DNA of 63,547 nt, the filler included, from Klebsormidium nitens (Eukaryota; Plantae; Klebsormidiophyceae), in assembly GCA_000708835.1 (NCBI GenBank). It is 7 parts of 7 records of this genome, joined end to end, with 100 filler letters (N's around TTAATTAATTAA, not from the genome) between each part and the next. Parts side by side here need not be neighbours in the genome. Positions count along the whole stretch, not along the records: positions 44,250 to 52,861 come from DF238263.1; positions 52,962 to 58,930 come from DF238388.1; positions 59,031 to 61,613 come from DF238090.1; positions 61,714 to 63,547 come from DF237884.1; 3 more parts are not named here. One strand, written 5' to 3'. Below, piece by piece: positions 27,098 through 63,547 of this stretch (position 1 is its first letter; each line of letters starts with the position of its first letter). The notes beneath the pieces are model-generated. The model ran no database searches. It saw nothing but the letters and a program-made list of their open reading frames with translations, and was not told where the DNA came from. The translations under genes and the position numbers were made by a program.

Positions 27098-27099
27098 AA

Positions 27100-34076: not shown

Positions 34077-34221
34077 CTCCCACTCAGACGAATAACTTCA
34101 AGACTCTAACTCGTCACGCTCCTCTTGTGGGCTGTCTTCTTCGCCTTGGGCGTCACCCACCCTCTTCCCTGGTTGAATCCCTCGATGACCCCGTCCCGAC
34201 GTCAGCCTTCGACTCCACTTT

Positions 34222-34302
34222 TTGTTAAATATCATGGGCCGTACCACTGGGCTATCCTTGCGCAAGTGGTAGCCCAGTGGTACGGCCCATGATATTTAAC
34301 AA
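34222..34302. repeat. Near-perfect 81-bp palindrome (33-bp perfect arms)
   Basis: TTGTTAAATATCATGGGCCGTACCACTGGGCTA (34222-34254) is the exact reverse complement of 34270-34302. The centre CTTGCGCAAG is itself palindromic. Confidence 0.95.
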
Positions 34303-34316
34303 GGCTCTTGTCCTGG

Positions 34317-35645: not shown

Positions 35646-35932
35646 TGTTAGAATCCGGTGATTATGGTCAGCCGGATTACTCCGTGATTAGGGTTCGGAC
35701 CGAGTTAGGGTTTGAACTAGTGAGCGCCGGCGTGCGTGCACAACGGTTAGGCGGTTAACCTTGGAGGTTAGGCGGTTGAGAGGGCCGCCGATATGGAGCC
35801 GTAGATGAGGATATCGATGGCTATGATTGAGTGTGAGTGTGATCTAGGCTAGTGAGCCTAGTAGTGTGTGACTTAGGCTGTGAGCCTAGTAGGCTAGTGA
35901 GCCAAGTGGAACGGAAGAGACCCGTAGACTTA
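35646..35932. repeat. LTR family B, copy 4 (inverted relative to copies 1-3, truncated by gap)
   Basis: Begins TGTTAGAATCCGGTGATTA and is the reverse complement of the shared block of the other copies. Confidence 0.8.
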
Positions 35933-42243: not shown

Positions 42244-43281
42244 AAACTTCTGGTGCAACTCAACTCGGACCAATGTCCCTTCCCACACATGCCCCACTAA
42301 AGAACTGGCAAGCACTGCCCCTCCAACCTGCGCAAGCAAGCAAACTGCCGCATGCAGTGCTGCCTCTTTCCTCCCCAGTATCCGGACCTCAGAGGCGAGG
42401 TGCGATGTTGCAGGTGTCCACTGAGATAGGAAAGTCACTGCTGATGTGAGGACGGCTAGCCCAGCGACGCCGGCAACTTGAGGGCCCTTGAACTGCTCAT
42501 CCAGGACTCCTGCATCATTTGAGCATAGGCTTGAGGACTGCAACAGAGCTTGTCTGTACTTCCAAGAAGTACAAACAATCATCCCAATCCTACTCCAAGG
42601 GCAAGCTAGGGTGCGATACAAAAACAGTCCGGGAAACCTCAAGGATGGTTTCGGATCATTTGAATAAAACGCGCAGCCGCCAGTCATGCCTCAAAGTCAT
42701 TCCAGAGCCAAGCTCCTTCAACCTGTCCATTGAACACAAGCACTTTGTTCTCTTTTCAGCTCCTTGGGATTGGTTCAAGACTTGGTGCGGTTGAACGGAG
42801 ACGGCTTCTTCCTTCAGAGGCTACGTCACGTCTGATTCGTAGAGGTCAATCCTCGTCAGAGACATGAGCACAGAATAGTGTATGGTAGCGACTTGGATGC
42901 TGTTTCTTCAAAAATGCTGCAATCTGGTCGATCCTTAGAAGCAGAAGGTCCAGAAGCTGGCACTCTTGTGTGATTGAGTCTAAACCTCAGACTAATGGAG
43001 CCGGCGAAGGGATCTAGCAGTTCTCGTTCTACTAAGTTCCCAATTGCAAGCAATTCACTAGCAAAGAGTGCCTTCACAGCCCGTACCGTTTTGAGGATGC
43101 ATGTCAGGTGTTACTCTCTTGAGTAGGCAGCAGAAGGCAAAACCAGCATAAGAATCAAAATTCTCACACCTGAACCAACGAGGATGCCGCACCCCAGGTA
43201 CACGAACAGGAAGGTGCTCAGCAGCTCACTGCCAGCACCTGCCACCAGAGGACTTCTGCAGAGCCTTTGGCTGATGCTCAT
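42244..43281 (-). pseudogene. Aquaporin/MIP-like gene or pseudogene, N-terminal half only recognisable, lacking NPA
   Basis: Exons 43281-43170 and 42509-42244 join in phase 1. They encode a TM1-like SELLSTFLFVYLGCG, a TM2-like VAGVAGLAVL and a TM3-like AVCLLAQVGGAVLASSLV. Loop B reads SHLASEV where HxNPAV is expected. The second half could not be reconstructed. Confidence 0.5.
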
Positions 43282-44564
43282 GCTGATTCCGATGTCAGAA
43301 GGAAGCTTTATGCTATAGCTAGCTGTATGCTGGACAGGGGCTGCAGATCTAGATCGTTGCAACCTGCGCTGTCCTCAGTACGGCAGTTTCAGCGGTCCTC
43401 CGGCTGGATTTTTGGATACCACAGCTGACAACAAGTAATTGCAGGCTATCTGCTCAAGGCATTGATAATATGCAATAGTTTGCCTGGGAGTGGCGCGTCC
43501 CTGGCAGTCAGTCTGTCATGACGCTGTTCTGAGCATGCGCAAACTATGAAAGTATCTGCAACATTCAAAGTGTATGACGCGCAGTTGCTAGGAATTAGAA
43601 TTCAGATCTCGGCACAAAGCCCTCTGCCGGCCGCCGTGATGTTAAAATTCAAAAAGCTGTCAAATTACCAGTCTTGCGAGGGCTAAAAAGCCGGAGGAAA
43701 AGGGTGCATACTGGCGCTGTAAACGATATAGCGCCTCTGAGATATACGTTTTGCAAGTCAGGATGTTGCTATGAATGAAATGCTTGAGCAAAATTCCTAA
43801 AACGGACACCTGAGGCTGTAAGTTAGAGCAACTCAGCAACTTTAGTCTTCTACCTACCTAGATCGTAGTGTACGGTAATAAGTTATCGACTCTGCATGAG
43901 CTCTACGCGCTGCGCTTCAACCTCAAGTTTGAAGGGGAGTGCACATCTTCCCCGGTTTTTCGAAAAGCACGTGAATGCAGCCGTTCAGATCGCAAGTGGA
44001 TCCGATCGGACGGCTTTGGACGAGCCAAGTACGTCTCTTCTCATCGACGATTCAAACTCGGTCAATGCTTTCAATCGGCGGTCGATACCCGTCGCGAACC
44101 GTTCCCTTTTCTGCCGCGCGGCCGGGCAAGATCACATTCAGCTGGACAGNNNNNNNNNNNNNNNNNNNNNNNNNNNNNNNNNNNNNNNNNNNNTTAATTA
44201 ATTAANNNNNNNNNNNNNNNNNNNNNNNNNNNNNNNNNNNNNNNNNNNNCGGAGGTGGAGGGCTTGAGCATGAAGGCGGAGAACCGGACACGAGAACTAC
44301 TGTCCGCCCTGTCTCTCCTGTCGTCCTGCTAAGGACGGGTCGGAGAGTCCCAGCCCCTGTTCTGTCTAGGAGTCATCCGTCATTTGAGGACCATCTTCAG
44401 GCGCAAGCAATATCGGTGTCTGCGAGGTTACTGTTGCACACCAGTCATCTTGGTTGGGAACAGGTCGGGAGTTTAGCACTCTCCTCTTCTCTTCGCATTT
44501 CGCCTTCCCAATGCTGCCTGGCTTGTTTCAGAAGGAGTAGACGATTAAAGGAAGAGACGATCAA

Positions 44565-47500
44565 ATGGATCCCATTGAGGAAGTCAAGTCGGAAATAGCA
44601 GAGGTCAAGGAACAAATCAAGGCTGTTTCAGAAGAGATTAAGGAAGCGAAGGAGGGCATCGAGCGTGCAGAAGAAGCTGGCAACCTGAGTGAGAAACAGC
44701 GCTGGGTGAAGAAAGAGGAGCAGCTGCGGGAGGAGAAGAACAAGCTGCTGGAGGAGAAGAACAAGCTGCTGGATGAGAAGGCCCGGCTGCAATCTGCAGG
44801 TGCGTCTCTCTTCTTGTCAAAGTATGTTGATTATCTTGGGCACAGGCCTTGAAACACTGTGCAAACCCGCAGGCAGGTGAGTGCACCTGCTCAGAGCACC
44901 TTCGTCAGGGTTTGTTTCCATCAGTGTGGGTTAGAAATGAGCGGCTCTCGTCGCCAGCACCCTTGTGTGTGCCGCTCGCTGTAATTGTGGGAGTTGAAGT
45001 TAGCACAAGAATGCATGTAAAACGGAGCGGCGTGTTCTTTACGGTCATGATGACATGCATGCTAAAGCTGTCTTTCGAATGTGGATAAAATGTTTCAGGT
45101 TGTCGAAAGGTTGCTGATCGACATGAGGGTTCTAGAACAACCGCAGGCTGTCCATCTTTGCAAGCTTTATTGTATGCTCTTCTGCGAAAGAACTGGGAAT
45201 GGCGCAGCTTTGCTGGTCGCATCAAAGGCAGCACAAGACGGTTGCTAAAATGTCAGAAGAATTGCATGTTTCGGAAGAGTGCACGTTGGAGCAGGTTTTT
45301 GCAGCTTAGTCAGCTTGGAAACTTTTCCAGCATGAGCAACTGTGAACTGGCAGAGACGTGCTTACAGATTTCTCTCAGCATGTGCTTTGCTTGCATGGCT
45401 CGGTTTTCCTGCGGGCAAGTGTTCAGCTGTTGTGGCCGGACATCCTGCTTGGAGGCAGAGTTGTTGGTATGCTCTTTTCGTCTCGAGGGTCAAGCATGTG
45501 ATAAGTGAGCATGTAAAGGAGTCTGCAAGTTGGCCTGTTGTGTAGGGATTCCAGTCTAGTCGTTAATGGTTGAGCATGTGGAAGAAAGAGTCTGCTGTTT
45601 GGCTGGTTGCTAAGGAACTCTCGTTCTTATCATTGCAGTGTCAACTACTGGCGGCAACAAGGGCAGCAACATGGAGGTCTGCGCACGACTTCTTGGCGAA
45701 GTTAACCATTGGGAAGCAGAAGGAGCGCTTGAAGCCACAGCTGCAGACTTTGGAGAAAAGCTCCTAGCACCTTTCAACCCTCTCCCGGCCTCAGTTCAAA
45801 TATACGACCAGATCAATGATGAAGATGAAAACTTGGGCCGAAAACTCAAGCTGGAAGGTGACTGCTCCCTTGTTCGGCGCGTCTCGGGTTTGCTGGATGA
45901 TCCTGAACCAACTGCAGGCAAGTTCTTGCTCTCCTGACCTGACTTTGTGTTGCCAATGTGGTTGTTGACGACTGCACTGCCAGCATGGCAGAAATTGTTA
46001 GATGACTGTGTTTACTACCTCCTGACCTTTACGGGTCCTACAAAGATGCTAGGTATGTCGATGAAGCCGCATGAGTCTTCCAAGCATCCTATCGTCACTC
46101 GCTGAGTGTTTGCTGAGTTGGTGCCTTGCTGCAGAGCTGAAGGAGTTGGCAACGTCATTTAATGTGATGAAGTTCCTGAGCCTCCTCCAGCGTCTCGCGA
46201 AGTACGCCCCGGATCGTCTGAGAATCCATATACGGCTCTCTTGGAACCAGGCAGAGCGACGTGTGTCTCGCCCTGTCACGCAGGTACTGTTTGATCATCC
46301 TATCATCCTATCACCTGCTTGAGGACATCAAAACTGTTTCTTCACCTTTCTGGCAGGGCTGTTCATAGGTTGCTTTGTCTACCAGGTTCAATAATGAGTA
46401 CACCCCGTTTCATCATTTGATAAGTTGCTTTGAAGGTGTACTGAACTGGTCTGTCTAATTTTGTAACCTTCATCAGGAACGAGTGGTCAGGGTTGGCTGA
46501 CAAGTGGCTTTTGCATGCAGCCCGGGACCATCGTTCGGCCAGACACACACCTTGTGACAGAAAAGCTGTCCCTCCTGTTTGGGGAGGACAAGGAGGCGAA
46601 CGACGAGCTCACAGAAGCCTGGAAGGACCACCGAAGGAAGCTGAACGGGGGCTTGAATCCTGTCGCCTATGGCAGAGTGCCATTCATCCCTCTCTACGCT
46701 GCTGCAGGCGATTTGATCCAATTCGGAAGGCTGACCTCAGACGGGCAAGTAGGTTGTCAGTCTCAAGCTGTCAGGCCTCTCCTTTCAACCCACGCCAGCT
46801 GGACATTCCATTTCCTGCACGGGGTTGAATAAGAACCTTATGGAGCATCAGGGGACTGCTCAAAGTTTTCGCTTCGTGCTGCCCATGTTGTCTGGATAGT
46901 CTGGAATTGTAAGTCATGTTCATCTCAGCAGAACAAAGTGAATAGCTCTTCTTTGTCTTCGGAGTGGCTCTCTTTCTGCGTCCATTAACAGAGAGGCCTT
47001 CTTCTCTTCAACACTTCACGCAGGAAGAACTGTCAGTCTTCATCCATAGATCTGCAACAGACAATCCCAAAGCCTGTTGTTCATGGTGTGTTATCAATTG
47101 CAGGTTCAGCGCGCTGGCCGGGCGTATGACTGGACCGTCCAAGGAGATCGGATTGCAATCGTGATTGCGGTGGTCAACATCTATAAGTTGCTTGTGACAC
47201 TGGTCAAGCTCGCCCCAGAAGACCACCAGAGGTTTCCAGTGTTTGACATCATCTCCCGGCCAAACGGCGCGGAGATTCTCATTTGCCTTGCAACGGTGCA
47301 CAAGAAGATTGAGAACAGCGCCGACTTCTTTCAGAGCATTCACAACGACTACGAAACTGTAAAGGTGGGGTGTTCAGCTCGTGGCCACTCTGCTCTCCCT
47401 GCTGATCACGGCAATTTCCAAGATTCTGATTATCCGTGGAGTTCCTTGACACCAATACAAGCTGGGTCGCAACATAAATGTGTAAGAGGTTCCTGACGTT

Positions 47501-49254
47501 TGCAAACCTGCGAGTCCCAAAGAGAAACAAAAGTTGTCATGGTGAACGGTCAGTGAGATACGACATTCTTCCAGTGTACACCTTCGAGGATGTTTCAGGA
47601 AGTTCGAGAAGAGTTAGACTAGAAACGAACCTTTGCACCCGATGCTTGAAGTAAGGAGTATGTGCAGTATTACAATGCCGGCCTCACGTTTTAACATTCT
47701 GAAGGCAGGCAATATGAAGTTTCATGGCTCCTTTCGAACTTCCAACTTTCCGAGATGCCTAAAGGCGGCAAGCGCAGAAGGTGCAAACGACGCCAGAAAG
47801 CTGCTGATGTCCTCTGTAGAGTTGAAGACGTTGTGTTGCCAACAAAGAAAGCGAATGAGCATCTGGATCTTTGTCAGTCTTTTGAGGTCTGGGGGCTAGA
47901 TTTCCTCAATTGACCTGCCCTCTACGCATGCAAAGTCAGGAAGACCGCACTGCTGGGGCCCTGTCCTCTCGAATCTTTCAAGCATGCTAAAGGCCCACGG
48001 TTAAATCCGCGCGCGAGCGGTACCATATGCTGCTGACACAAGCCGACCAAAATCATGTCAGTACCTTGGAAACGTTCTCGTCGTTCATTGAGATGTTATA
48101 CCTCAGCAAGATGCATGTCCCAAGTCGAGGAGTTCGTTGAAGAGAGTAGAGCTCGTATTTTTGAGCAGAAAAGGAAGAGTACTGACCAGGGCCTTCTTTG
48201 CATCATTACAGACCGCGTACGAGCTGGCCAACGGAAAATCATTCGCGGTCTGGCACGAGAGCATCTCCAATACCCCGGGAAAGAAGCGTGGTAGTACCGA
48301 TCAGCCACGCTGCATCTACAAGGTAAGTCGCACCTGAGCAGCATTTTGCTTTGATCATTTCTAACCTTTGTCTAGGTTGCCCTGATTCTGTGCGTTCCAA
48401 TGTCGATCGTTCTCATTCGACCTTCCATGCAGAGTTTGCTTGGGCCAGAGTCTCATTGACTTGTTCTTCAAGCCCCTGGCATCGAGCTGCTTTACTGTCG
48501 CTACCACTCTTTCTGGAGCACTGCCTGTATCTCTGTGCAGGTCGTCTTGACCCGGTTGGGCTTCTGCATCGAGGACATCAACGAGCTGAGCGAGAGCGAC
48601 CTTAGAAAAGCTGTCCGTGTGTGCTTAGAGCTCTGCCGGCTGTTCGCAGCTGCGAAGCTCGGCCATTGCGACCTGCGAATGTCCAACATCCTCTGGGGGC
48701 CACAACCCTTCGTCGCCGACTTTGAGGCCGCGCACAAGCTGCCCTGGAAGGTAGGCTTATTTTAAACTGATCCTTGAAGTTGAAGACGTCTGGTGGATCT
48801 CTGCTTGCTTCTTGCTTGCCTTCTGCCCTTGTCCCTTTTCAACTACAAAGGTTCGGCTTTGTTGTGAGGTAACTGTACCTCCTCAGGAGCTTAGTGATAC
48901 AAAAGTTTTCTTTAAGGCCCCAGATTGGAAGCACGAAGTGCGCCACAGCTCAGAAGGATTGGATGTCATTTAAAAGCCCCCATCCTGAACTCTTTTGTTT
49001 TGAATTCTTTTGCAAACATGCTAACATTCCTGGTGGCATCGCAGGTGCCGCACAACTTCCAGCCCTTTACAGACTGGGATGCTGGAACATTGTCGCGATC
49101 AAGAGAGTACACCACCAAAAGCGACGTGTACCAGGTGGGCATCATGATGGACAAGTATGACGGATTGACAGAAGAGGGTCGGCAATTGGCCGCGTTACTG
49201 AAAAGGAAAAAGGTAGAGGCAGAGGTCGCTTTAAAGGACCCCTACTTGTCTTGA
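44565..49254 (+). CDS. Crinkler/CR-effector-like protein: coiled-coil header + PD-(D/E)xK REase-fold domain + divergent protein kinase, 8 exons, 560 aa
   Basis: Exons 44565-44799, 45639-45917 (GC donor), 46135-46283, 46521-46748, 47104-47364, 48212-48322, 48541-48750 and 49045-49254 total 1683 nt in an open frame. Features are a heptad E/K-rich N-terminus, RPD...LLFGEDK, and kinase motifs HCDLRMSNIL, VADFE and KSDVYQVG. Confidence 0.75.
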
Positions 49255-50165
49255 AAAAGCAAGACTGCTTCCTCAGCCGACTGCGGAGGGATGAGGGCTG
49301 GGCCACTTGATTTTTACATTCAGCAGATGCCCAATCAGTGCAAACACAAAGTGGATTGGCGACAAATCAAAATGCAAACCTGTTATTTCAGACCGTTGCA
49401 TATTGGAAAGGTTTTGGGGAAATAAGTCCGGTCACATCGAGACAGAGTGGAAGCAATGTTTCCGATGTCTCAATCTGAAGATCCTGTTTCGACATGAATG
49501 GCATTTGTACTCGTTTACGCCAACATCTCAACGTTTCAAAGGGGCTGTGCACACCGCGGCGAGGCAGACGAAATTCGTTAACTTTCCTCGCTAGATAACC
49601 AAGTGCTTTCGCAAGATCATATCTGCATAGTAACGTTGCATACTATGGCAGTTTACAAAGGAACTTTTGACAATCTGCACCAACTGGCTGGCAGCATTGA
49701 ACTCAAATGCATCTAGAACATGTGTGTGTGTTGGCCTAGCATTATACGGCCTAACCATTGCCATAAGCGACGCACTTTAGATGCAAATGGTCTTCATACA
49801 TACCCCTCTCTAGCTTGCATCATTCCGCCATATAATGGTACAAGAAGCCCTCTCTTGTGTTCTACGATCCCAATCTGTGGGTAGGACGGCCAATTCCAGC
49901 CCGCCAGTACAGACTATCTCTATTTGACTGCATCACATAGTAGAATATAGCAATTTACGTATCCGCATGTATAGCCCAACCCATATTTTTAAACTCGGAT
50001 TTGCATCCATCTATGTCTATATGCGCCTTTGGCAAAGCTTGCTAAATTCCTGTCGACCTCAAAATGAAAGAATATATGCATGTACCAAGGAGTGAAGTTT
50101 TGCAAGCACTATGGCTATAGGAATGGGAGGCAAGCCAATTGACAGTTCTGGCTCGTCCTTTGCAG

Positions 50166-52005
50166 GGGCTGGGTCACCCGACGCCTACCGTCGGGGGCTT
50201 CTTGGACCACATCTTTAATGGCGACCGAGCATTGATCGACTTCATGCAGAGGCTCTGGGGTTATATGCCATCAACGGACGCACCTCGGAGGAGATCACTG
50301 TGTTCCTTCTTGGAAGCGGCGGTACCTCTTTTCCTTCTTCGGCTATAATTGTCTTCGTCGAACTGCNNNNNNNNNNNNNNNNNNNNNNNNNNNNNNNNNN
50401 NNNNNNNNNNNNNNNNNNNNNNNNNNNNNNNNNNNNNNNNNNNNNNNNNNNNNNNNNNNNNNNNNNNNNNNNNNNNNNNNNNNNNNNNNNNNNNNNNNNN
50501 NNNNNNNNNNNNNNNNNNNNNNNNNNNNNNNNNNNNNNNNNNNNNNNNNNNNNNNNNNNNNNNNNNNNNNNNNNNNNNNNNNNNNNNNNNNNNNNNNNNN
50601 NNNNNNNNNNNNNNNNNNNNNNNNNNNNNNNNNNNNNNNNNNNNNNNNNNNNNNNNNNNNNNNNNNNNNNNNNNNNNNNNNNNNNNNNNNNNNNNNNNNN
50701 NNNNNNNNNNNNNNNNNNNNNNNNNNNNNNNNNNNNNNNNNNNNNNNNNNNNNNNNNNNNNNNNNNNNNNNNNNNNNNNNNNNNNNNNNNNNNNNNNNNN
50801 NNNNNNNNNNNNNNNNNNNNNNNNNNNNNNNNNNNNNNNNNNNNNNNNNNNNNNNNNNNNNNNNNNNNNNNNNNNNNNNNNNNNNNNNNNNNACCCCCTT
50901 GATGACGTCAGCAGCCATTCCACCAATAGTCCACCGCGATTGGTGGCGTGAACGTTTCGAGTGTCCCAGTCTGTTGAGCACTTGCCTTTTGCTTTGTTGC
51001 TCTAGAATGACGTCAGCAGCCATCTCTGACTGTTTATCCGTTGGGATAAATAATCACGCCCATTTTGCTTTGATTGGTTTGTCCATCACGAATTCTCTTA
51101 GTCCATTTCGGATGCCCCGCTCACATGCTTTTCATCCCCTTTCCCGTGCAGGGAATGGCAAGGGAGTATGCAAGCAGATGCTGGAGATCACGCTGGGCGA
51201 ATACTACGGCGTGATTTCCAAGGACGCCGTGGTCAAGGCCCCCGGACAACACCCGCCGTCCAAGGGCGCTGCCACGGGCTACCTCGCCGAGCTCCAGGGA
51301 AAGCGGGTGGCCGTGACGGACGAGACGAGCCCGGGAGAGCGCGTCGACCTAGGGAACGTGCTCATGATGACCGGCGGGGGCATGGTCGCCTCCCGGCTCC
51401 TCTACCAAAACAACGTCTCCTTCCGGTTCACCCACACGCCCTTCATCCAGACCAACTATGACCCCGAAATTCCCCCGACCCTAGCCAAGCAGCCAAACAT
51501 CGCCCGCCGCCTCATCGTGGTCCACTTCCCAAACGAGTACGTGACCGAGAACAAGTTTGACGAGACCAACCCAAACCACAGGCACGTGGACATTGGGTTG
51601 AAGGGCCGGATGGAGAGTCAGGCGGTCCGCGAGGAGTTCCTCACGTTCCTCGTCCAGGGAAGTCGGGCCTGGTACGAGGACCCCACGGTCTTGCGCAGGC
51701 ATCCGGCGGCCGTCCAGGCGGCCTCAATGGCATGGCTGCGGCGCGGAGACAAGCTGCAGATCTTCCTGCAATCGGAGCACTGCGTGCACGACCCGTCGGA
51801 GACGCCCGACAATGCCAAGACGGTCACATGGGAGGACGAGTTCTGGACGCAGTTCCAGAGATTCACAGGGGTCAAGATTGCCAAGGAGGAGTTGGCTAGG
51901 CAGATGCGAGAGAAGGGTTACGCGAGAACGAAGCGAGCCGGCCGTTATGACGGGTCATCCCAGCGGAGCTCGTGCTATATAGGCTTCAAGTGCGAGTATG
52001 ATTGA
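50166..52005 (+). CDS. D5-like/P4-family SF3 helicase (viral primase-helicase C-terminal part), intron-containing, with one apparent 2-bp frameshift; 5' part not recovered
   Basis: Exon 50166-50321 reads GFLDHIFNGDRALIDFMQRLWGY-AINGRTSEEITVFLLGSG once an extra AT at 50265-50266 is removed. Splicing G|gtacc...gcag|GG to exon 51152-52005 gives Walker A GSGGNGKG. Walker B is RVAVTDE, followed by LMMTGGG...RLLYQ, FIQTNY, RRLIVVHF and a C-terminal winged-helix-like tail. Confidence 0.8.
50893..51030 (-). repeat. Inverted copy of the ~101-bp repeat inside the D5 intron (next to a gap)
   Basis: The reverse complement ggtggaatggctgctgacgtcatcaagggggt matches ggtgggatggctactgacgtaatcaagggggt at about 52757-52788. 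Confidence 0.7.
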
Positions 52006-52615
52006 CGATCTGCGCCCGCCCATAGAGTCCATTGACCTTCTTTCGTTTGCTCTTGCTTTAATTGGTAGAGCAGAGGAGCCTAGGATGTACATTTGTCCTC
52101 GTTTTCGGAGATAGCTTAGATGCCCTAGGTGTACATTCTAGTAACCCCTTCACTTTGGTATTAATTTTGTATGCGTGTGGACGAATCTCACCAACCCTGT
52201 GGATGTACCATCCTACAATGACAACCTTCAAAGACTCTTTGCTTTCACCAATTGGATTTGCACGTAATGTTGAGACTAGTAAGTCTACAATACCACACAT
52301 CATGGTTGTGAACCATGATGTACACCTCGTGTACAACCCCATTTTTCTGGGTGAAATGGAATTTATGCCACCATGCCAAAGTCTTGGTCAAGAAGTCGAG
52401 TAGCGTTTATGCACTACTGAATTAACAGTCGTAGGCCAGGTCTACGGTTGCAAACTCAACAACACTTCATGGTCAACCAATTCAGGAGCCTTGCATAAGT
52501 TGATTATGAATAACCTGTTTTGATGTAGCCAAGTTGAAAGCCTGACTTGCCAAGTTGTCCATCAAATATGCTAGCTCATGCAATTTATGCGTCACAACCT
52601 TTGAACTTGGGAATC

Positions 52616-52861
52616 CACTCGAACACCTTCGTGCCGTTGATTATAGAGCATTGCTGGTGGGATGGTTGCTGATGTCATCAAGCACGCTCAACAAAAAAGG
52701 CACGTAAAAACTTGGACGATCGGACACCTTCGTGCGGTTGATTATAGAGCATTACTGGTGGGATGGCTACTGACGTAATCAAGGGGGTCGACCTCAAAAC
52801 TTTCGTCAAAAACTCGGGCACTCGAACACCTTCGTGCCGTTCATTATAGAGCATTACTGGT
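52616..52861 (+). repeat. Tandem repeat of a ~101-102-bp unit, at least 2.5 copies, running into a gap
   Basis: caccttcgtgc(c/g)gtt(g/c)attatagagcatt(g/a)ctggt recurs at about 52624, 52725 and 52827. Confidence 0.85.
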
Positions 52862-53640
52862 NNNNNNNNNNNNNNNNNNNNNNNNNNNNNNNNNNNNNNN
52901 NNNNNTTAATTAATTAANNNNNNNNNNNNNNNNNNNNNNNNNNNNNNNNNNNNNNNNNNNNTGATAATACACTCAGTAGATTCGTCCATCATTCTAGAGC
53001 GTGATTACGATGAGTGAGATAAGATTTTGCTATTTCACGTAGCTTATTACATAGGCATCATGCTTTTTCGCTTCGACTGCATATGTTGAGCGCACCCGAC
53101 ACGGCACAGCCTCGACTCATCACGGCACGACAGCTCTATATGCCGGCGGCCGGCCGCGCCGATCCGAGCGCGGCCACAATTTCAAATGTACATATTGCTG
53201 GCGCGCGCGATCAGTCATGCTCGACGGTCTCATGGCGAGTCGTTGCATCGTAGCCTGATCGGCAAGGTGGCCCGCGGAACTGTAAGGAATCAAGTTCATG
53301 TAACTGAGGCCTTGGAAGATCAGAGAACCTTGCGTTCTCCTATCTAGGTCAACCAACGTGAGTCTCTATCGTTGGACAGCGGTTCCTACGATTGCAAGCA
53401 CGGTTTAGAATTCCCCTTGCTGCATGTGCATAGACGGCCAGGAACTTGAACATACATGCGACCCGATATTAATTGATGCAGCAAGGGCAGGCCACCTTTA
53501 GCGCTTTAAAGGGCGAATCAGTGTGGGGCGCCTAGATTTATCAAGTTCTTGTCGACACTGGAAAGCGGCAACCGCATGTTACTACCACTTTCCGCAAAGA
53601 GCTAGCCATTTCATACCAACTAATGAGCATCTCTTGGGTC

Positions 53641-56600
53641 CTAGCTGACTGCGACGCGCCCGCTGACTACGGCCGTGAGAAGCCGGTGCAAGTTGGGCAG
53701 CGTTTGACGGGGACCCACCGCCGGCAGCTGCAGTGCGCTCAGCAGCTGTTCAATGTCCTGCACACCACCACCGCATCTTGGTCACCTCACCACAAACTAG
53801 AGTTGGGACGACCTGCTTTGTGAGGGCAAGAGAGTGGGGATTCCATTGGAAGCTTACTCTAGAAGCGAGTAACCGCCTCCCCAGGATCGTTATTCTAAAG
53901 CTGTACAAACACTATCCGACAGCAAAATGGCCCTCTGCATGCTGATCTGCACCGAACCGCCTACCAGCCGCACACGGGGCAAAGCACCAGAATTTCGTCA
54001 ATCGAAGCTTTAGTACTTGTTGCTAGCCCCCTCTGATCCAAAGGTCACAACCAACCATAGACGTCCAACCAATCTTGGTGGCCGAGACAATGACTTCAGC
54101 ACACACTGAATCAAACATGCCTGGAAGCAGAAAGCTGAAATACACCCAACTCGAAACCAACCAGCCGGAGACAAGGAGGTAAGCTGTCCAGCCGCGTCCT
54201 CACCTTGTTCAGCAGAAACACCGCATACGAGAACTTGGTCTCATCCGCGCCCTCCGCAAACAGCGGAAACTCCACCGCACGCTCCCCGGGGGGCGGTCCC
54301 GGCCCGGAACCCCGGCTCGGCCCCCCGTTCTTCACCCCCCCGCCAACCGCCCCCCGTTTCGTCTGAATCCCCGCGGCGTCGAGCACGTACGATCGCGACG
54401 CGCCGAATCGCAACGGGTACCGCAGCGCAACGCCCAAGATGCGCGCGAGCATTTCGAGCAGGTGCGCCACCCCCCCTAGCGCGGCCGCGACCCGCTCGTA
54501 CGCCTGTTTGTCGGACAACACCTGCCCGGGGGGGCCTTTGGAGAGCAGCCCCAGGCTGGCCAGCGCGGCGGCCCCCGCATCCCCGACCCCCCCGGAAAAG
54601 CGCGGCGAGCCGCACAGGAGCGCCTCGGCGGCGCAGGGGTCCAGACACAGGCACGGGCCGAGGGGCCCGATGGGAGGGGGCGCGGGCGGGGAGCGCCCGC
54701 CGGGGCGTGCCGAGTTGTCCATGTTAAGCAGGTTGCTCCCCGCAATGAACGCCTCGAGAACGTCGGAGGGAGGGGGCGAGCCGGGCCGAGAGCCGGTTCG
54801 CACGGAGGGGNNNNNNNNNNNNNNNNNNNNGGGGGTGTCTGGAAGGGGGGGCGACAGGGAGGGGGGGGGGCGTGCAAGGTCGATCTGAGAGACAGTGCGC
54901 GAGTGGAGGGGGGTGGGGCTGGGAGACGCGGCTGCGCTGGGGGGCGGTTTCGTTCTGGGGGGCACGAATGGGGTGACGGCGCAGGGGAGAAGGGCGGGGT
55001 AGAGAGTGAGAAGGCGCCCGAGCAGACGGCGCCGGCGGGCCGCCAGGCGGTGCTGTAGTTGTGCCACGTGGCCGTGGCCGGTGCCGCTGGCGAGGAGGGC
55101 CGCCGCAGCCTGCATTGCACACGTGTCGTTTTACCAGGCGGCGTCACAAATGTAGAGCTAGGCAGGTGCTGTTGCAAGTCGATGTGGAATGTCTTTCAAT
55201 TGAAACCGCAGACTGGTCCTTGAAAGGGCACAAGAAAAATCTAGAGACGTGCTGACAACCGCCGAAGCCAGATGTCAATGTTAAAACAGGCCAGCTTCTT
55301 GCACGCGAAAAGCTACTGGAAGAAGTTTTGATTTGGCCATTGCCGCAGAAAGCCTGCCGCCCAAATCTTTACTTCATCTTCCGTAGTCGTCAAAGGCCCT
55401 TGATGACGGCGGACTGAACGAAGGAAGCCCGTAAGGAAAGCCCTACCAGCCCAAGAAAGACCCCACACGAGCCTAACAATCCCCCAAAGGTGGCCTACGC
55501 TTGATGCAGCTTTCAACAAAGCTGGCTGCCTTATTCGAGTCCAATTTGAGCCAGCGCGCAATGTTTGAACCTTTCAACAAGTGGCATCCGGGTCCTCGAA
55601 TGCTTTCGGCTCTGCGCATGAGGGGAGTATCTGCGATCGGCTCGGTTCTCGTTATATCCTGATTACCAAGGTCCTCACAGGACTGCATGGACCTTCTCTA
55701 TCGTTCTCGCAACGCGTACTTCGAAAAGGAAACTCAAGAGAAAGTTTACAGAAGCGGGATATCGGACTTGTATCAACCGGCCAGCTTTTACTGAATGTGC
55801 AATATCCTCAAGTCACAGATGAAAGCCGCTGCTCACATCTAGTCGTTTTCGCGCGCCCGCCAGCGTGGTTGCCGCCCCGAGCAGCCCCGGCGCGCGCTCA
55901 AGCACCTCGGCTTTGCGCTCCTCGATGCGTGCGCGCGCAGCTGCGAGCGCATTTTTCTCCCGCTCTAGTTCCTCCCGCAGAGCTGCCACTCGGCGATGAG
56001 CCTTCTGGGCCGCCGCAGCTCTCTCGAAGAGCGCTTGCCGTTCCTGCCAAATTTGAGCGATTGATTTCATTCACCAATTGTTGAGACCAGATGAGGGGAT
56101 TTCTGTTTCTTACCATTATGCTGCGTATGCAGAGTCTTCAAGCCAAAAAAGCAAATGGGAGATTCGACAATGCTTGTGTTGCATCATTTCGGGTCGACTC
56201 AGGGCTCACTGTCATTTTTGCAAGTATCCACTTTCAGTAGCTGACAAGCGCCTCGAAAAGGTCATGTGGCGATATATGATTGTACAACGTCTTAGAGCGC
56301 TGCCACCCGAACCTCATCGACCATACGTGTTCAGATCCAAAACATTCTCTGATACATACTTAGTTCGCAATGACACTCTTGATCTTTCAATCCAAACCGT
56401 GAAAGTCAAAAGTCGCAGAACTCCACAATCATGGGACATTGCTAGCAAACACGAGAGACGACCCGCTTTTCTGGATCCAGAAGTCTCCCTTGCCCCGTCA
56501 GATGTCAAAGAAGCAGCGCAACTTTCTGTGTCCGAATGTTGATTCGTCTGAAGCGGTCATTGCTAGCCGATATGGTATGTTGAACTTTCACGTTTACGTT

Positions 56601-57800
56601 TCGCATCTTGTTTGACACTTGGATCACTGACCCCCTCACCTCTCCTCTGCATCGAACCGCCTCCTTCATCGCATCCCGTCTCGCCCTCGCCCGCCCCAGC
56701 CGCGCCGTCGCCCCCCCAGCCGCATACACCCCCTCCTGTAACTCCTCCAATGTCACTTGCACTCCCACCTTCTTTTCCCCCCTTCCGTGCCCGCCCCCCC
56801 CTTCATGATCATCCGTTGACCCGTTTAACTCGTGCGCTGCGGCTAAGGGGCTGTCCGGTAACACATACCACCCATCGGGGGCCTGAAACAGCAGGGCGTT
56901 AACCCCCCCATCTGCATTAAGCTCCCAGGGAGGATACTGCAGCCGCACCAAATGTCGTAGATCCACGTCCATCCGCACAACTTCTTCTTCCACGATCTCC
57001 ACTACCCCTCCCATCTCATTGTCTTCTTCCCCATCATTGTCTCTATCCTTCTGAAATCTTGAGCTTTCGCCCCCTTTCGCTGATATCGCGCTAACTTCTT
57101 CCCCCTCCCTCCTCCGCACCTTCCAGTTCCGTCCTCCCGGGAGTGTCCCCCATCGTCGCTGCCCCGTTGCCGGCAGCCCCTCCAAAACGGACCTCCCCTC
57201 TCCTAGTTTGCTTTCATTGCCTCCCCCCCCCACTTCCTGCACTGCAGCACCCCCCCGGCCCCAATCTTGCTCCTCTTCCGCGCCCCCATTTTGTCCCCGT
57301 TCGGTGGCCGCCACGAACACGGACACTCGCAACGGACCGCAGTGCGCCAAAGCGTGCGATGACATCAGCGCCAGGTCGATGACGCCCCATTCTGGCGCGA
57401 GGGTGCCCCATGCGAGCTCACTGCTGTAGAAGATTTCACCCCCCTCCGACGAGCGGCTTGTCTCCGATTCCTTCTTAAGGGGACCGGGGTCATAGGAAAT
57501 AGACTTTATGAGCAGTTTTGGGGGTGGGCCGCTGTGCGACTGTGGCTGGGAGCTTTCGGAGCCGTAAGTAGTGGCGGGGACAGCAAGGGTGAAGTAGGCG
57601 GCGAGGTCGTGGGTGCAGGGGGAGAGGGACTGGGGGAACAGGTTGCGCGCTTGAATGCCCAGCAGGCGGCGAAGGCTCAAGGAACCTTCGCTGTCACCCT
57701 GCTCCCTCTCTAGTTTGGCCCCGTGGGGATCCTCGCTGTCTGTCAGATCCCTCCCATTTGGCGTTTGCGCCAGATGGTTCTGTTCGATTCTAGCCATCAT
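53641..57800 (-). CDS. UVRAG: UVRAG/VPS38 (PI3K complex II subunit) with an N-terminal C2-like domain, 4 exons
   Basis: Exons 57800-56640, 56043-55837, 55109-54204 (contains a 20-nt N gap) and 53757-53641. The C2-like segment is LRRLLGIQARNL...YFTL...EIFYSSELAWGTLAPEW, followed by a coiled coil. The BARA-like segment is AALGGVAHLLEMLARILGVALRYPLRFGASRSYV...EFPLF...KFSYAVFLLNKDIEQLL. Confidence 0.88.
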
Positions 57801-59128
57801 AAATTCTTAAAAGCCCTTTTAGTCAATCTTTTTCGATTGATAAAGGCGGTCAGCTGCCGCAGACATTGACGCGTCTTGATGCCTGAGTTGTACATCTCGT
57901 CCAGATGTGATAGGCCAGGCCTCCGCAAGCTCTCTGCTCTTGGTTTCAAGGGGCGCCAGCCACTGCAGCAGAGGCCTTACGAAAGTCAAATTGATTGAAG
58001 GTCAACAAAATCAAAACGAATCTGCCTGTTACTTCTGGCATTGAACAATGGTCTTGTGACTTCTTCAGCGTCAACCTGAAGCTTGAGGACCCCTTGAGGA
58101 CCAGGATTCAATCCGATAACTCAATCCCTACATGATGGAACTCTAAGCAGGAATTGTGATGACCATGAGAATTCGCTTTTGATAGCAAAAGCAAGTTAGT
58201 ATCGCAACAAGGTTAAGAATTTGTCAATCGCGGATGAATGCATGAAAATCTGGGCGACCATCTTAAGAACGGGAGTAGGAATGATAACAAGACGCAACAT
58301 GGAGGAGCATTGTGGAGCTTGCAAGTCTTGTTGATGTTTACCACCGTTAAAGAATCCAAATCCGTCCAGGATTTGGTGCCGTCGTATGAAAAGCTCCATG
58401 TCCTCGAACAAGTTAGATGCCAAAGAGATCACTTTCATACAAGTCAAAAGGGAAATTCGTTCGTAGAGATTACCTAGAAGATGATCAAGTACTAACATAA
58501 GGCTAGGAGGCTTCCAAAATGCCCTTTCCTGGCTAAGACGCCCCTGCTACTCCAACAGATAATGTGCAAGACGCGGCACAGAAGTTAAACACAGACGGAC
58601 ACTCCTATTCGAGCTGGAGAACTTCAAAATTCCAGATGTTATTCCTCCGCCCGAAGATCTTGCCTCTCCCTTTGCGCCTTCTCTTGTCTCTCCCACATTT
58701 TGTCCAGTCAGAACGGAGGGAAGGAGAACGTGGATTGCAGTTTGCAGTCCGAGACCCCCACACCGCTTGATACTCAGTGCGCGAGCACCGGGTCTGGGAA
58801 CGTCACCGCCGGCGAGGTTTGACATGCCGGATCGCTGGCGACCAACATTGGGGTCTTTCAAAGGTCCGGAAATGCACACTCCGTGCATGAGTCTTTTTTT
58901 AAGGGACCAGATTGCAAGTTCGACCAATCTNNNNNNNNNNNNNNNNNNNNNNNNNNNNNNNNNNNNNNNNNNNNTTAATTAATTAANNNNNNNNNNNNNN
59001 NNNNNNNNNNNNNNNNNNNNNNNNNNNNNNTCTTGCGCCAGTTTGCACGATTGACGCTTATGCAATTTTGATTATGTGCTCCGCCAGGTTTCCTGCAATC
59101 TTTGACTCATTTCGCTTCCATTTTGCAG

Positions 59129-61613
59129 TGGGACTGCACGCCTGCTGCACCTCGAAACGGGGCAGATCACTGGCTGGACGGAGGACTACGTCAAGGCGGA
59201 CGGCATGCTGCCCTATCCCGTTTTCCCCATCGACTCCCCCGCCAAGCACACAATCCTCACTTCAGCCAACAAGGGCATTGGAAAGTCGAAGGAGGGGTTC
59301 GACTGGCTCGAGAGGCTGCTGGAAATCTATCCCCACGCCTCCGTCGCCGTCATCGCAGCCAACGTCACGCTCTCTCGGAAATATGACGAAGATCTGAAGC
59401 GGCGCGGCATTGAGGTCACGCTGTACCTAGATTTGCCTGGAAAGATCACGGCAAGCAGGGTGGTGTGCTGCGTCAACTCCCTCCCACGGCTCGACGCCAG
59501 CTTTGACGTAGTCATCATGGACGAGATGGACATGATCATGTCCAACATGAACTCGGATGTGATGGCTCGGAAGAAGATGGTTTTCTTGGCAGTGGAGGGG
59601 GCGACAAAGCACGCCAAGATTGTGCTCGGGATGGACGCCAACATCGGCAGCCCTCGGGTCATGCAGTGGCTGTACATGGTCCGGACGGATGCTGCCTTGC
59701 ACGCAATTCGTAACCGCGGGGTGTACCCAGGTGAAAGGAAGGCCACGATCAAGTACATCCCGTCGACCAAGCGTTTCCAGGCAGATCCCTACGGCCCCGC
59801 CATTGCTGAGACGATGGAGGCTTTGGACCGAGGCAAAAAGGTCATAGTGAGTCCCTTCGTGCAACTTTCAAGAGAGAAGAAAAGCTTTGACTTCCCAACG
59901 CAGGCTGCAAAAAACGAACGCCCTCCCCGGCTCTTTCCAACCAGAAAGAAAGCAGACTGAAAAAACGAAATCGGAAACGAAAAACGGAACACAGCCACGG
60001 ATCCCCCACCGACCAATCACAGACGGCCACGTCAGCAGACAGAAAAAATCCGCAAGCTTCTCAGATCGAAAGGATCCGCCCGTCGAGTGCGCGTCACTTC
60101 AACATATTTTGACCAGGATTGATCCGTGCTCTCTTTACTTCAACCTGCTCCGGAACATTGCATGAAATTCAGGATTTTCTCGCAACTCTAGTTTAGTACA
60201 GCACGGCAGCACTGCCGCACAAGCAGCAGCGCAACGATCATGTTTTTCCGAACGCAACGAGTCGCGGCCTAGATCAAAGGAGCACACTGCACACGAATAT
60301 CGGAACGTTTCTGACACCTTGCAGGCGCCCTCCGCCAGCAAGACGTACGATCTGAAGCTCAAGGAAGCCTTCGAGCAGCGCTACCCGAGCGACAGCCCGA
60401 CTGCCAAGTCTGGAAAGTTCCTCTACTCCAAGCCAGAGTCGGAGGCCGCGAAAGAGGCTCTTGTGTTGGCAGTTACCGATCCGGATACTCATCTGACGGC
60501 GGACCTGTGCGCCTCTTCGCCTGTGATCGGCCCTGGTATCTCGAGGGAGCGGCCCCACTTTGACAAGCTCATCGCTTTTGCCATGAACGCCTTCGAGCGG
60601 GGGCCCACTGTCGAGACGTTTCTCCAGCAGCTCTTCCGCGATCGTACTGTCAGTGACTTCACGATCTACGTGAAGGGTGGTGCGGGCCCACGGTCGCTCC
60701 CTTCGACTGTGGAAGACGTCTTCTGCGCGATTGAGGACGAGGACCGCGAGCTGGCCAAGCTGCTTGGAAGCACCGAGCATCTAGACTTCATGCTGGCACC
60801 CTCGGGGACGCGGCCAATCTGCGACAGAAACTCCCCGAGCTGCATCCTCTACGCAAACAACATTCTCACGATCGCCAACAGTTTCCGGGACTATCCCGAG
60901 CTCCTGCGCGCTGACCTGATCAAGCAAGGGTTCGTCGTCGAGGAGGTGTATCTGGACGACGAAGCACCCTCCATTGCGGTGCGCAAAGCGACTAACGGAG
61001 ACAAGAACCTCGCTGATGAGGATTGGCGGGCAAAGTACGTCGTTGATGAAGAGGCGTACCGCAAATTGCTCCGGAAGGCAGAGGTTGATTCCCTGAACGA
61101 GATGGAGGAGAGGCAGAGACACATTTACGAGTGCATCCGCAACGTGCACAAGGTCGATCCTCGTAGAGTCGACCACAATTACGAGGTGGTGCATTGCGGG
61201 AAGGAGCTAGTCCCGTTCAAGAACTACATCAGGTAAGTGTAAAGCACTGTACGATAGATTCCCAAGTGATTTCGACTGGATCGAACTGCCTTCAGAGCTT
61301 CAAAGCTCCAGCCAACTTTGCCTTGTTTCTGACCAGAGCTGTCGAATTGACTGCAAGATTGTCTTATTGCCTTTGCGCAGATTGTACATGCTTCCTTCAC
61401 TGCCTTGCTCCTTCCGGTTCTTGCCGCAGGCTTGCCTTGCCTCTTCCCAATCCCTCAGTCCTGCAACGTTTGCGGCCTAGATTCAAAGAATTGAGTATAT
61501 CGGAACAGCATGCTAGGTGACTCATACAAACGCTCTTTTCGGACAGGTTCCGAACGACCCCTATCTCCTCCCTCATGGACGAGCTCACGAGAGCTTTGAA
61601 GGAAGGAGACACT
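59129..61613 (+). CDS. Origin-binding-protein-like SF2 helicase (herpes UL9 / NCLDV ori-binding type), intron-containing, both ends lost near gaps
   Basis: Exons 59129-59846, 60325-61232 and 61547-61613(gap) splice in phase. Motifs: Walker A SANKGIGKS, Ia AANVTLS, VVCCVNSLPRL, Walker B VIMDEMD, III GMDAN, SSPVIGPGIS and QQLFRDR. Confidence 0.75.
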
Positions 61614-61713
61614 NNNNNNNNNNNNNNNNNNNNNNNNNNNNNNNNNNNNNNNNNNNNTTAATTAATTAANNNNNNNNNNNNNNNNNNNNNNNNNNNNNNN
61701 NNNNNNNNNNNNN

Positions 61714-62345
61714 GGGGACAGAGTGAGGTTCTGATCACCCTCGGGATGCTGGCGGATATGCAGAGTCCCACCAACCCAACTCCTATCCCACCGACACCCA
61801 CACCAACTCCGACTCCTACTCCCATCGCACCAACCGTTGCAGTCTCACTGCAGACTACACCTAATGTGTGGAAGTTGACCGTGACACCCACACCAGTCTC
61901 AGCTGTGGTCAACGGTGACAACACGATCACGGTGACTCTGGCGACACCTAACACTCCCACTCCAGTGGTGACTCCGACACCAGTTGTGACTCCCACACCA
62001 ACACCTATCGTTACTCCAACTCCGACTCCTGTCGTGACACCCACGCCACCACCTACAAGCGGTGGCATCTCGGTGACGTCCCAGGTGACAAGCTCCTGGT
62101 CGGAGGGAGGCGTTACGAAATACAACTCGCAGATCTTTATGAAGAATAACACCGCAAACACGGTGCACAGCATCGTGTTGAACAAGCCAAGCACTACATT
62201 GAAACCTTGGAGTATTACGGAGACTGAAACTACCCTATCGCTTCCCTCATGGATCGTGCAGTCGGGTCTTCCTGCGGGACAGACGTACGACTTTGGTGGG
62301 ACATTCACCAGTATCCCTACATTCACGGTTCTGAGCTTTGCATGA
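61714..62345 (+). CDS. C-terminal part of a Pro/Thr-linker protein ending in a CBM49/CBM2-like carbohydrate-binding module; intronless, 5' end probably in the gap
   Basis: (PT)n and (VVTPTP)n linkers are followed by VTSQVTSSW...Y...I..KNN...PWSI...LSLPSW...LPAGQTYDFGG, which matches the CBM49/CBM2 pattern. Confidence 0.65.
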
Positions 62346-62382
62346 GCAAAAAATTTAAATTGTTCTACAACAAAATAACAAG

Positions 62383-62832
62383 ATGTTACAGGTCAACGAC
62401 TTGAAACAATTGGAGACTGGCCATTATGTACTATATTTCGTGCGTGGACGTGCTCCGAATAACTATGTTTGCTATGATATACCCTTTATCAACGAGACTT
62501 TAGCGAATGAATGCTGTGAGATTTATCAGGAACATCGAACAGAATATTATGGGACTGGATACACTTTCTGTAGAGTTTATAAAACGATATGCATATTTGA
62601 TGGAGAGTATATGCATTCACTTACACATTCTGGAACAAAGTGGTCTTTGACACAGATCGATAAATACAACGACAAGGTTATGCAATGTTCGGATAAATAC
62701 AAGACATACATAGGATTCTTTGGAGATGGATTGCGAAGGCATCGTACTTTCCTCGAGAAGTTAGCAATGACACTGACATTTGGTTTCTGTTGTGCCGTAG
62801 ATGACTGTGTGAGTGTGCGGATCGATGGGTAG
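62383..62832 (+). CDS. Hypothetical 149-aa intronless AT-rich ORF, virus-like gene organisation
   Basis: ATG-initiated ORF only 37 nt after the previous stop. The spacer is A-rich (aaaaaatttaaattg...aacaaaataacaagATG) and codon usage is A/T-ending, unlike the host exons. No recognised domain. Confidence 0.55.
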   Translation: MLQVNDLKQLETGHYVLYFVRGRAPNNYVCYDIPFINETLANECCEIYQEHRTEYYGTGYTFCRVYKTICIFDGEYMHSLTHSGTKWSLTQIDKYNDKVMQCSDKYKTYIGFFGDGLRRHRTFLEKLAMTLTFGFCCAVDDCVSVRIDG

Positions 62833-63472
62833 AAACTTTTGATTTCTTCAATCAATCAGAATAGTGTGCCCGGTTCGCCCAGCAATCGACGGATCAGGTC
62901 AGGTTTACGTAGCAGGATCGACGGTGTTCGTCCCAGGAATAGCTTTAGCACTGTTGAGTAGGAAAGGTATTAGACAGACAAGGAAGGCGGCTGCATATAA
63001 CCCTACGCACATGAATTCCATGCAAGCTCTAGCATGAACCGGTGATACGGTTTGCGATGGAAGGCTTGCGACATGATTGCAGAAGAATGCACAATCGAAT
63101 ATACCGCTTGCGCGCGTGCACGCCACGTATGAAATGTTCCATGAGAATATTCCATGCTTGGTTATATGCAGAAGGGGTCCGTAAAAGGGAATTGGCTGTC
63201 CTACACAAATCGACAATGATACAATGCAGCAAGACCTCTCCAACGAGCATTTTTTGAAAGTAGGTCCAACTCCAAGTACCAAACGTACAACCAATGTCTG
63301 CTTCATCACTCTGCCTCGTTCAACACACTCTTTTTGAGCCTCTAGATAGATAGACAATGAACGTTCACCTCGTTCTGCCAAGCTTGCATATTCTACCCAC
63401 TTCTACAACATAGACTGAGCATCGTCCACACCAGTCGACTTCAGTACCACTATCAATGTTTTGCGGAACACT

Positions 63473-63540
63473 CTACCGCGTCGTGTTGGACACCCTGATA
63501 GTGGTACAGATCCTACCGCGTCGTGTTGGACACCCTGATA
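63473..63540. repeat. Two identical 28-bp direct repeats (period 40)
   Basis: CTACCGCGTCGTGTTGGACACCCTGATA occurs at 63473 and 63513. The array may continue beyond the window. Confidence 0.85.
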
Positions 63541-63547
63541 GGAATGG

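What the first reader, a model, noticed from the sequence alone, without database searches (positions are those of the whole stretch)
44565..63547. Accessory island: two viral replication helicases, a toxin-like effector and virus-like DNA around one core gene
Within about 19 kb lie a CR-type REase-kinase, a D5 SF3 helicase, a UL9-like SF2 helicase and intronless AT-rich virus-like ORFs, interleaved with gaps and tandem repeats, around one conserved gene (UVRAG). Two compositional layers are visible: GC-rich intron-bearing viral genes and AT-rich intronless ones. Inference: either repeated giant-virus endogenisation at different ages, or a candidate undescribed mobile system in which intron-bearing helicase genes with repeat arrays carry effector cargo.
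Basis: inference. Interest (0 to 1): 0.7.

Follow-up and report, generated by a model that had tools for sequence, protein, structure and literature searches.

The report
Two intron-bearing viral primase-helicase families
This stretch of an algal genome is likely a patchwork rather than one element: pieces of two multi-copy, intron-bearing genes related to viral DNA-copying enzymes (one piece broken) lie beside two likely host genes, and each family is likely the copying engine of its own mobile element.

Summary
The listed parts are real; one element joining them is not supported. The window is likely Klebsormidium nitens.
- Kinase gene: intact, 8 exons, all 7 introns spliced in two RNA studies. 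The CR/REase label rests on recalled motifs.
- 'D5' gene: a frameshifted 3' remnant of a Prim-Pol–zinc–SF3 helicase family (4 other K. nitens proteins). Inverted copies of the 101-bp repeat frame its last exon. The scan found this family before on other DNA (e1-10416187, e1-10593016).
- 'UL9' gene: an open three-exon piece, cut by gaps, of a second family: primase (AEP)–zinc–UL9 helicase, the mimivirus R8/ASFV F1055L type (3 other K. nitens proteins, K. subtile transcripts). I found no earlier report of it in this alga.
- The 7 other copies lie on 7 different contigs, and mriyaviruses use these two helicase types as alternatives. No transposase or capsid gene was found.
- 'GC-rich' is host-like codon usage; only one orphan ORF is AT-rich.
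Best reading: independent insertions around UVRAG in a repeat-rich scaffold. Three unsized gaps remain unbridged.

The parts
44250..45014 (+). Multi-copy 5' module: upstream region plus first exon (coiled-coil header) of the kinase gene; other RNA contigs continue from this exon into different sequences
   Evidence: DNA word depth 487-700 against 43 in the gene body (run X1); DNA loose ends at 44998 and 45014; RNA loose ends at 44800 and 44803
44565..49254 (+). Intact, spliced 8-exon gene (560 codons): coiled-coil header, likely REase, likely protein kinase (CR-like). One GC-AG intron.
   Evidence: Open frame in every exon; 7 of 7 introns seen as joints in X5 and X6; motifs RPD..GEDK, HCDLRMSN, DFE, SDVYQVG read by eye against recalled consensus; no profile hit
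50166..50321 (+). Penultimate exon of a Prim-Pol–D5 family copy, with a 2-bp frameshift near 50262; nothing upstream matches the family
   Evidence: tblastn with P0003-P0005; table 4
50322..51151 (+). GT-AG intron splitting the Walker A motif; holds the 526-N gap and inverted copies of the repeat (50893-50974, 51007-51024)
   Evidence: Joint 50320-51151 in X5 and X6
51152..52005 (+). Last exon of the D5 copy: SF3 helicase core
52605..52861 (+). 101-bp tandem array (2.4 units seen, runs into an unsized gap); also present in other family copies
   Evidence: DNA depth 293-330 and variant units in RNA contigs
53641..57800 (-). UVRAG/VPS38 host gene
   Evidence: phmmer to human UVRAG E 3.7e-6; weak ATG14 hit E 0.04; ends read
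59031..61613 (+). Internal piece of an AEP–zinc–UL9 (SF2) primase-helicase gene: exons 59129-59846, 60325-61232, 61547-61613; open frame; unsized gaps on both sides
   Evidence: PF02399; 79/83/76% to P0009 by exon, GT-AG ends, no stops; P0009 N-terminus is an AEP
61714..62345 (+). Intronless ORF, open to the gap: Pro/Thr linkers and a CBM49 domain; GC 0.544
   Evidence: PF09478 E 5e-10
62383..62832 (+). 149-aa orphan ORF, GC 0.396, after a 37-bp A-rich spacer; viral origin unproven
   Evidence: lies in one DNA unitig at depth 49
63473..63541 (.). Two identical 29-bp copies 40 bp apart at the window end
   Evidence: family D10

Best explanation
The region is likely a patchwork of independent insertions around two likely host genes, not one element: it holds a frameshifted remnant of one multi-copy, intron-bearing primase-helicase family, an open internal piece of a second such family, an intact spliced kinase-like gene, UVRAG, and a small intronless contig that is likely a virus relic. 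Shown: both families are multi-copy in Klebsormidium, share intron positions between copies, have transcribed members, and have the layout primase + zinc module + helicase. Family A is Prim-Pol + D5_N + SF3; family B is a giant-virus/herpes-type AEP + UL9-like SF2. Inferred: each fusion is a one-gene replication module taken from a DNA virus (A from a Polinton-like or similar small virus, B from an R8/F1055L-bearing virus). Each gained spliceosomal introns and host codon usage in the nucleus and then spread as part of its own mobile element. The helicase would unwind and the primase-polymerase would prime synthesis; in family A the inverted 101-bp arrays would be the binding sites or origin. 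The integrase is not in this window. The D5 copy here is decaying and lost its 5' part next to the kinase gene.
For: Family A: 4 other K. nitens proteins; Prim-Pol + D5_N + SF3; intronless relatives of 800-999 aa on contigs of 4-35 kb, one of 260 kb. Family B: 3 other K. nitens proteins and 2 K. subtile transcript isoforms; AEP by Atlas at 0.97. The 7 other copies lie on 7 contigs of different length, none shared between families. Exon-sized database fragments P0007 and P0013 start or end at this window's splice sites. The D5 copy is dead: frameshift, all RNA contig depth at that site lacks the 2 extra bases, and 8 of 10 listed exon differences change the amino acid against 77% expected under neutrality. 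The repeat core occurs 4 times in the window, all at the D5 copy, against 0.08 expected. No Pfam hit in 132 further ORF pieces. In mriyaviruses SF2 and SF3 primase-helicases are mutually exclusive (PMC11253617, passages). Copia gag remnants at 26 and 34 kb show a repeat-rich scaffold.
Against: Two rare families within 7 kb is not a cheap coincidence: expected pairs within 10 kb are 0.004 for 5x4 copies spread evenly, and reach 0.19-0.77 only with 10-20 copies each confined to a tenth of the genome. Both helicases and the kinase share one strand. Copy lists are partial (family B comes from one 90% cluster; unannotated copies are missed), so co-location elsewhere is not excluded. No flanks of other copies could be fetched, so termini, target duplications and an integrase are unseen and mobility is inferred. 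The kinase gene and D5 remnant are truly adjacent (one 5292-bp unitig). The two families share a similar zinc module (E 6e-4).
Confidence: 0.6

Rival explanations
1. The juxtaposition is partly an assembly product: the 2.6-kb UL9 contig and the 1.8-kb last contig were placed beside UVRAG by scaffolding links through repeats and lie elsewhere.
For: Three unsized linker gaps separate the parts. The UL9 contig lies wholly inside a multi-copy gene, and about 558 upstream and 150 downstream codons would have to sit in the gaps. No contig bridged these gaps.
Against: The kinase-D5 join is one unitig, and the D5 gene's spliced intron spans the 526-N gap. The UL9 piece is only 75-87% identical to known paralogs, enough to be told apart. 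The last contig has depth 49 against 43 for the kinase body in the same DNA run, so contamination is unlikely.
Confidence: 0.17
2. One large mobile system uses both helicases and the repeat arrays and carries the CR-like kinase (and captured UVRAG) as cargo.
For: Low chance expectation if copies are few. Kinase and D5 remnant are contiguous, and the kinase's 5' module is multi-copy. An earlier, unreviewed note reports family A paired with a KDZ transposase (e1-10593016).
Against: 0 of 4 other family A contigs is a family B contig. The kinase body and the 49.5-50.0 kb spacer are single-depth. The repeat is absent from the UL9 contig. The two helicase types are alternatives in mriyaviruses. No transposase profile hit.
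Confidence: 0.1
3. All viral parts are relics of repeated giant-virus insertions of different ages; the helicase genes are domesticated or passively duplicated host genes, not mobile elements.
For: K. flaccidum (nitens) holds several distinct giant-virus insertions (PMC5294986 section 3.3). Family B's primase is closest to Nucleocytoviricota clusters. Some members are transcribed, and K. subtile and K. nitens copies are 96% identical. No integrase was seen.
Against: Family A's primase is Prim-Pol, and most of its closest intronless relatives sit on contigs under 36 kb. Copies are scattered, partly truncated, and share intronic and flanking repeats. No other giant-virus marker surrounds them here.
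Confidence: 0.13

Closest known systems
AEP–UL9 (SF2) primase-helicases: mimivirus R8, ASFV pF1055L, mriyavirus SF2_hel, SmDNAV (NCVOG0024)
   Same: N-terminal AEP with DxD and SxH motifs, then a UL9-like SF2 helicase (PMC11253617, PMC3493329 and bioRxiv 10.64898/2026.08.29.747986, passages)
   Different: Here a nuclear, intron-bearing, multi-copy gene with host codon usage and no neighbouring viral genes seen
Polinton-like virus primase–SF3 helicase replication modules
   Same: One-gene primase + SF3 helicase; module swapping is common in PLVs (bioRxiv 10.64898/2026.06.19.733378 and PMC4642659, passages)
   Different: No capsid, packaging ATPase or integrase found here; spliceosomal introns, whereas PLV insertions are described as intronless (PMC10120064, passage). 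The source of the closest relatives was not identified.
Poxvirus D5 / ASFV C962R (NCVOG0023)
   Same: D5_N + SF3 helicase (PDB hits E 7e-8 to 8e-4)
   Different: Primase is PF09250 Prim-Pol; similarity is confined to the helicase half
Giant endogenous viral elements of Klebsormidium
   Same: Intronless, tightly spaced ORFs in the last contig
   Different: Only 1.8 kb, no marker gene, no relative found; published inserts are contigs dominated by viral genes
CR (Crinkler-RHS) REase+kinase proteins (Zhang et al. 2016, seen only through review PMC5289972)
   Same: Shared alpha-helical header on variable C-termini; REase-like then kinase-like motifs
   Different: Membership not shown by any profile, homolog or fold; no evidence of secretion or toxicity

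Membership tests
   7 other helicase copies on 7 different contigs; lists are partial
   Kinase-D5 contiguous; three unsized gaps unbridged
   No island-bounding repeat; 0 of 132 ORF pieces hit Pfam; gaps could hide them
R8/F1055L-type AEP–UL9 primase-helicase | UL9-like SF2 helicase | tested here: met
   PF02399 E 2.8e-11; CyRepA1 E 8e-25 on P0009
R8/F1055L-type AEP–UL9 primase-helicase | N-terminal AEP | tested here: met
   In paralog P0009 only (Atlas 0.97; no Pfam primase hit); that part is missing from the window
Poxvirus D5/C962R type | D5_N + SF3 helicase | tested here: met
Poxvirus D5/C962R type | D5/C962R-type AEP at the N-terminus | tested here: not met
   Paralogs carry PF09250 Prim-Pol
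Polinton-like virus | Major and minor capsid, packaging ATPase, integrase | tested here: not met
   No hit in window ORFs; divergent capsids can escape Pfam
Giant endogenous viral element | Cluster of intronless genes with giant-virus markers | tested here: inconclusive
   Two intronless ORFs, no marker or relative
   None in 52006-54110; the array runs into a gap
CR REase+kinase | REase domain followed by kinase domain | tested here: inconclusive
   Motifs by eye (recalled consensus); single exons gave no profile hit, no homolog, best kinase hit E about 1, fold pLDDT 50
CR REase+kinase | Modular header shared among genes | tested here: met
   Multi-depth first exon with other RNA continuations
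CR REase+kinase | Nuclease or toxic activity | not testable with these tools
   Needs an assay

The most novel reading that the evidence does not exclude
Klebsormidium hosts a class of capsid-less, intron-bearing, self-priming DNA elements that run on interchangeable virus-derived replication modules (Prim-Pol–SF3 or AEP–UL9/SF2), insert into the same neighbourhoods, and can move CR-like header/toxin genes; this scaffold would show both versions side by side.
Probability: 0.2. Interest if true: 0.8.

Novelty: new variant of a known kind. Interest (0 to 1): 0.42.

Why it matters
Eukaryotic DNA elements that encode their own replication enzymes are known mainly as Polintons, Polinton-like viruses and Helitrons (recalled). 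Two separate viral primase-helicase fusions that gained introns, stayed transcribed and multiplied in one streptophyte alga would show a route from DNA virus to capsid-less element, taken twice. The AEP–UL9 family would also be a nuclear example of the little-studied R8/F1055L type. The island as a unit matters less: it is most likely a cluster of unrelated insertions.

Tried and rejected
No whole genome was held, so the genome-wide co-occurrence test could not be run. Loci of relatives: nothing confirmed in viral contigs (repeat pattern), metagenome contigs (33, 73) or prokaryote genomes (81). Pfam on 132 ORF pieces from ten intervals between 41.0 and 63.5 kb: 0 hits at E 0.01. Homolog search with kinase exon 4: 0 of 95 candidates at E <= 1. 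Single-sequence folds were too poor to use: exon 4 pLDDT 49.9, orphan ORF 45.7, whose fold search gave 0 hits at E 0.001. Atlas gave no usable hit for the orphan ORF. No RNA contig was laid on 61714-63547 in 3 of 3 RNA-type runs; this is not evidence of silence. No holder was on record as RNA; the RNA label is the tool's guess, backed here by intron-skipping joints. Quick helicase tree (the 60 best of 130 rows covering at least 190 residues; the careful search did not finish): the Klebsormidium rows plus 3 unnamed exon-sized fragments group at 97-99 support, with no supported sister group, so no donor is named. Rejected: contamination of the last contig (host-like depth); 'GC-rich viral layer' as an age marker (equals host codon usage); plastid D5 primases of PMC4877394 as the same thing (those passages concern zygnematophycean chloroplasts).
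Full report
Setting. Named homologs are Klebsormidium nitens proteins, so the window is likely a K. nitens scaffold. Within 44565-63547 there are 6 gaps: one of 526 N, one of 20 N, and three unsized linker gaps written as paired N runs (52862-52961, 58931-59030, 61614-61713); counted as N runs there are 8. No whole genome was held. The left of the window has ordinary host genes and copia gag remnants at 26 and 34 kb.

Kinase gene. Contigs of two RNA-type runs from two studies (X5, X6) skip 7 of 7 predicted introns, and the long pieces differ from the window at 0-2 letters, so this locus is transcribed. The eight exons give 560 open codons. In DNA run X1 the body has depth 43; the first 770 bases have 487-700, with loose ends at 44998-45014, and RNA contigs leave exon 1 into other sequences. 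The tool warns that depth is no copy number, so I read this only as 'shared by several genes'. A shared helical header on variable C-termini fits CR proteins as described in review PMC5289972 (passages; Zhang et al. 2016 itself was not held). The REase and kinase calls rest on motifs matched by eye to recalled consensus. Profiles, a homolog search, PDB and a fold on single exons gave nothing significant.

Family A (D5). The window holds two exons, 50166-50321 and 51152-52005. The intron between them splits Walker A and contains the 526-N gap. That intron is skipped in X5 and X6, but all RNA contig depth at 50262 lacks the 2 frameshifting bases of this copy, so the transcripts come from other copies. 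Of the 10 exon differences among the 40 rows shown (472 in all), 8 change the amino acid, against 77% expected without selection. One unitig (44970-50260) joins the kinase gene to this exon, so the 5' loss is real. Four other K. nitens proteins belong to the family; all four carry Prim-Pol PF09250 and a zinc-type motif was matched in three. A search of 1.84 billion representatives with P0004 found single-ORF relatives of the same layout, 28-39% identical, on contigs of 4-35 kb and one of 260 kb; their identity could not be read. Primase-SF3 fusions are a common PLV replication module (bioRxiv 10.64898/2026.06.19.733378 and PMC4642659, passages). The 2017 survey's table appears to list no D5 for K. 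flaccidum (PMC5294986); I did not see its supplementary trees, which may bear on this.

The repeat. The 101-bp array lies 600 bp downstream and runs into a gap. Inverted, diverged copies lie in the intron (50893-50974, 51007-51024); the alignment score of 116 exceeded all 1000 shuffles (maximum 77.5). The core motif occurs 4 times in the window, all here, against 0.08 expected. Other DNA contigs match both the intron and the array, so the arrangement belongs to the family. An origin or binding role is inferred, not tested.

Family B (UL9). The contig 59031-61613 holds three exons with canonical splice ends and no stop, 79, 83 and 76% identical to P0009 (1275 aa). P0009's residues 170-570 score 0.97 to Nucleocytoviricota AEP clusters in the Atlas, though Pfam found no primase. 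This is the layout of mimivirus R8, ASFV pF1055L, mriyavirus SF2_hel and SmDNAV (passages). Three other K. nitens proteins and two K. subtile transcript isoforms are 87-96% identical where compared. A JGI fragment matches this window's middle exon end to end, which implies shared introns. Families A and B share only a short zinc module (E 6e-4). None of the ten paper searches (notably 19, 52, 59, 84, 102, 109) or the scan look-ups showed a report of this family in Klebsormidium; the library lacks most subscription journals.

Last contig. It has a Pro/Thr-CBM49 ORF and a 149-aa orphan, separated by 37 A-rich bases. It lies in one unitig at depth 49 in X1, close to the 43 of the kinase body. K. 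flaccidum is known to carry several giant-virus insertions (PMC5294986 section 3.3, read), so a viral relic is plausible, but no relative was found.

One element or several? For several: the 4 other A copies and 3 other B copies lie on 7 contigs of different length; UVRAG separates the two here; the repeat is confined to A; SF2 and SF3 primase-helicases are mutually exclusive in mriyaviruses; no transposase was found. For one: chance proximity is low unless copies are many and clustered (0.004-0.77 expected pairs across the assumptions tried, using the 104-Mb size from PMC4052687); copy lists are incomplete; gaps could hide termini. Composition does not separate ages: helicase exon GC3 equals host GC3 and only one ORF is AT-rich.

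Earlier notes. e1-10416187 describes family A with the same Walker A intron on other DNA, which agrees with what I tested. e1-10593016 reports a KDZ transposase facing family A across repeats; I found no KDZ here, but the array ends in a gap. Both are unreviewed.

Verdict. The parts are real and the island is probably not a unit (0.6 patchwork, 0.17 partly mis-scaffolded, 0.13 passive relics or domesticated genes, 0.10 one system). What is new here is family B, and the parallel between two intron-bearing viral primase-helicase families in one alga. Mobility is inferred for both. Interest 0.42.

Noticed in passing
window 44250-45014: A multi-copy module with upstream region and coiled-coil first exon continues into different sequences in RNA contigs: a possible header-shuffling cassette for a CR-like gene family.
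   Followed up: partly
window 50905-50919, 52762-52776: The repeat core contains TGACGTCA/TGACGTAA, which resembles bZIP (CRE/as-1) sites (recalled); could act as an enhancer instead of an origin.
   Followed up: no
window 51162-52025: Summed RNA contig depth on the D5 exon is far above that on the kinase gene in X5 and X6; the tool warns against ranking by depth, but some family copy may be strongly expressed.
   Followed up: no
window 26204-35932: Two copia gag remnants with LTR-like repeats of 250-470 bp in both orientations.
   Followed up: partly
window 42859-43374 (-): Frames that read like a decayed aquaporin/MIP segment by eye (recalled motif); no Pfam hit.
   Followed up: partly
window 45918-46134: A GC-AG intron in the kinase gene, supported by RNA joints.
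   Followed up: yes
window 48471-48871: An 11-kb DNA contig in X1 holds a paralog of the kinase exon (77 differences in about 400 bp).
   Followed up: no
window 58196-58930: Stretch between the UVRAG start and the gap with two stop-free frames of 116-127 codons and no profile hit; may hold an element end.
   Followed up: partly
window 63473-63541: 40-bp-period direct repeat at the window end.
   Followed up: no
P0053, P0067, P0068, P0031, P0039: Exon-sized fragments of more diverged family A members in JGI/IMG and Logan, on contigs up to 61 kb, suggest several subfamilies in related algae.
   Followed up: partly
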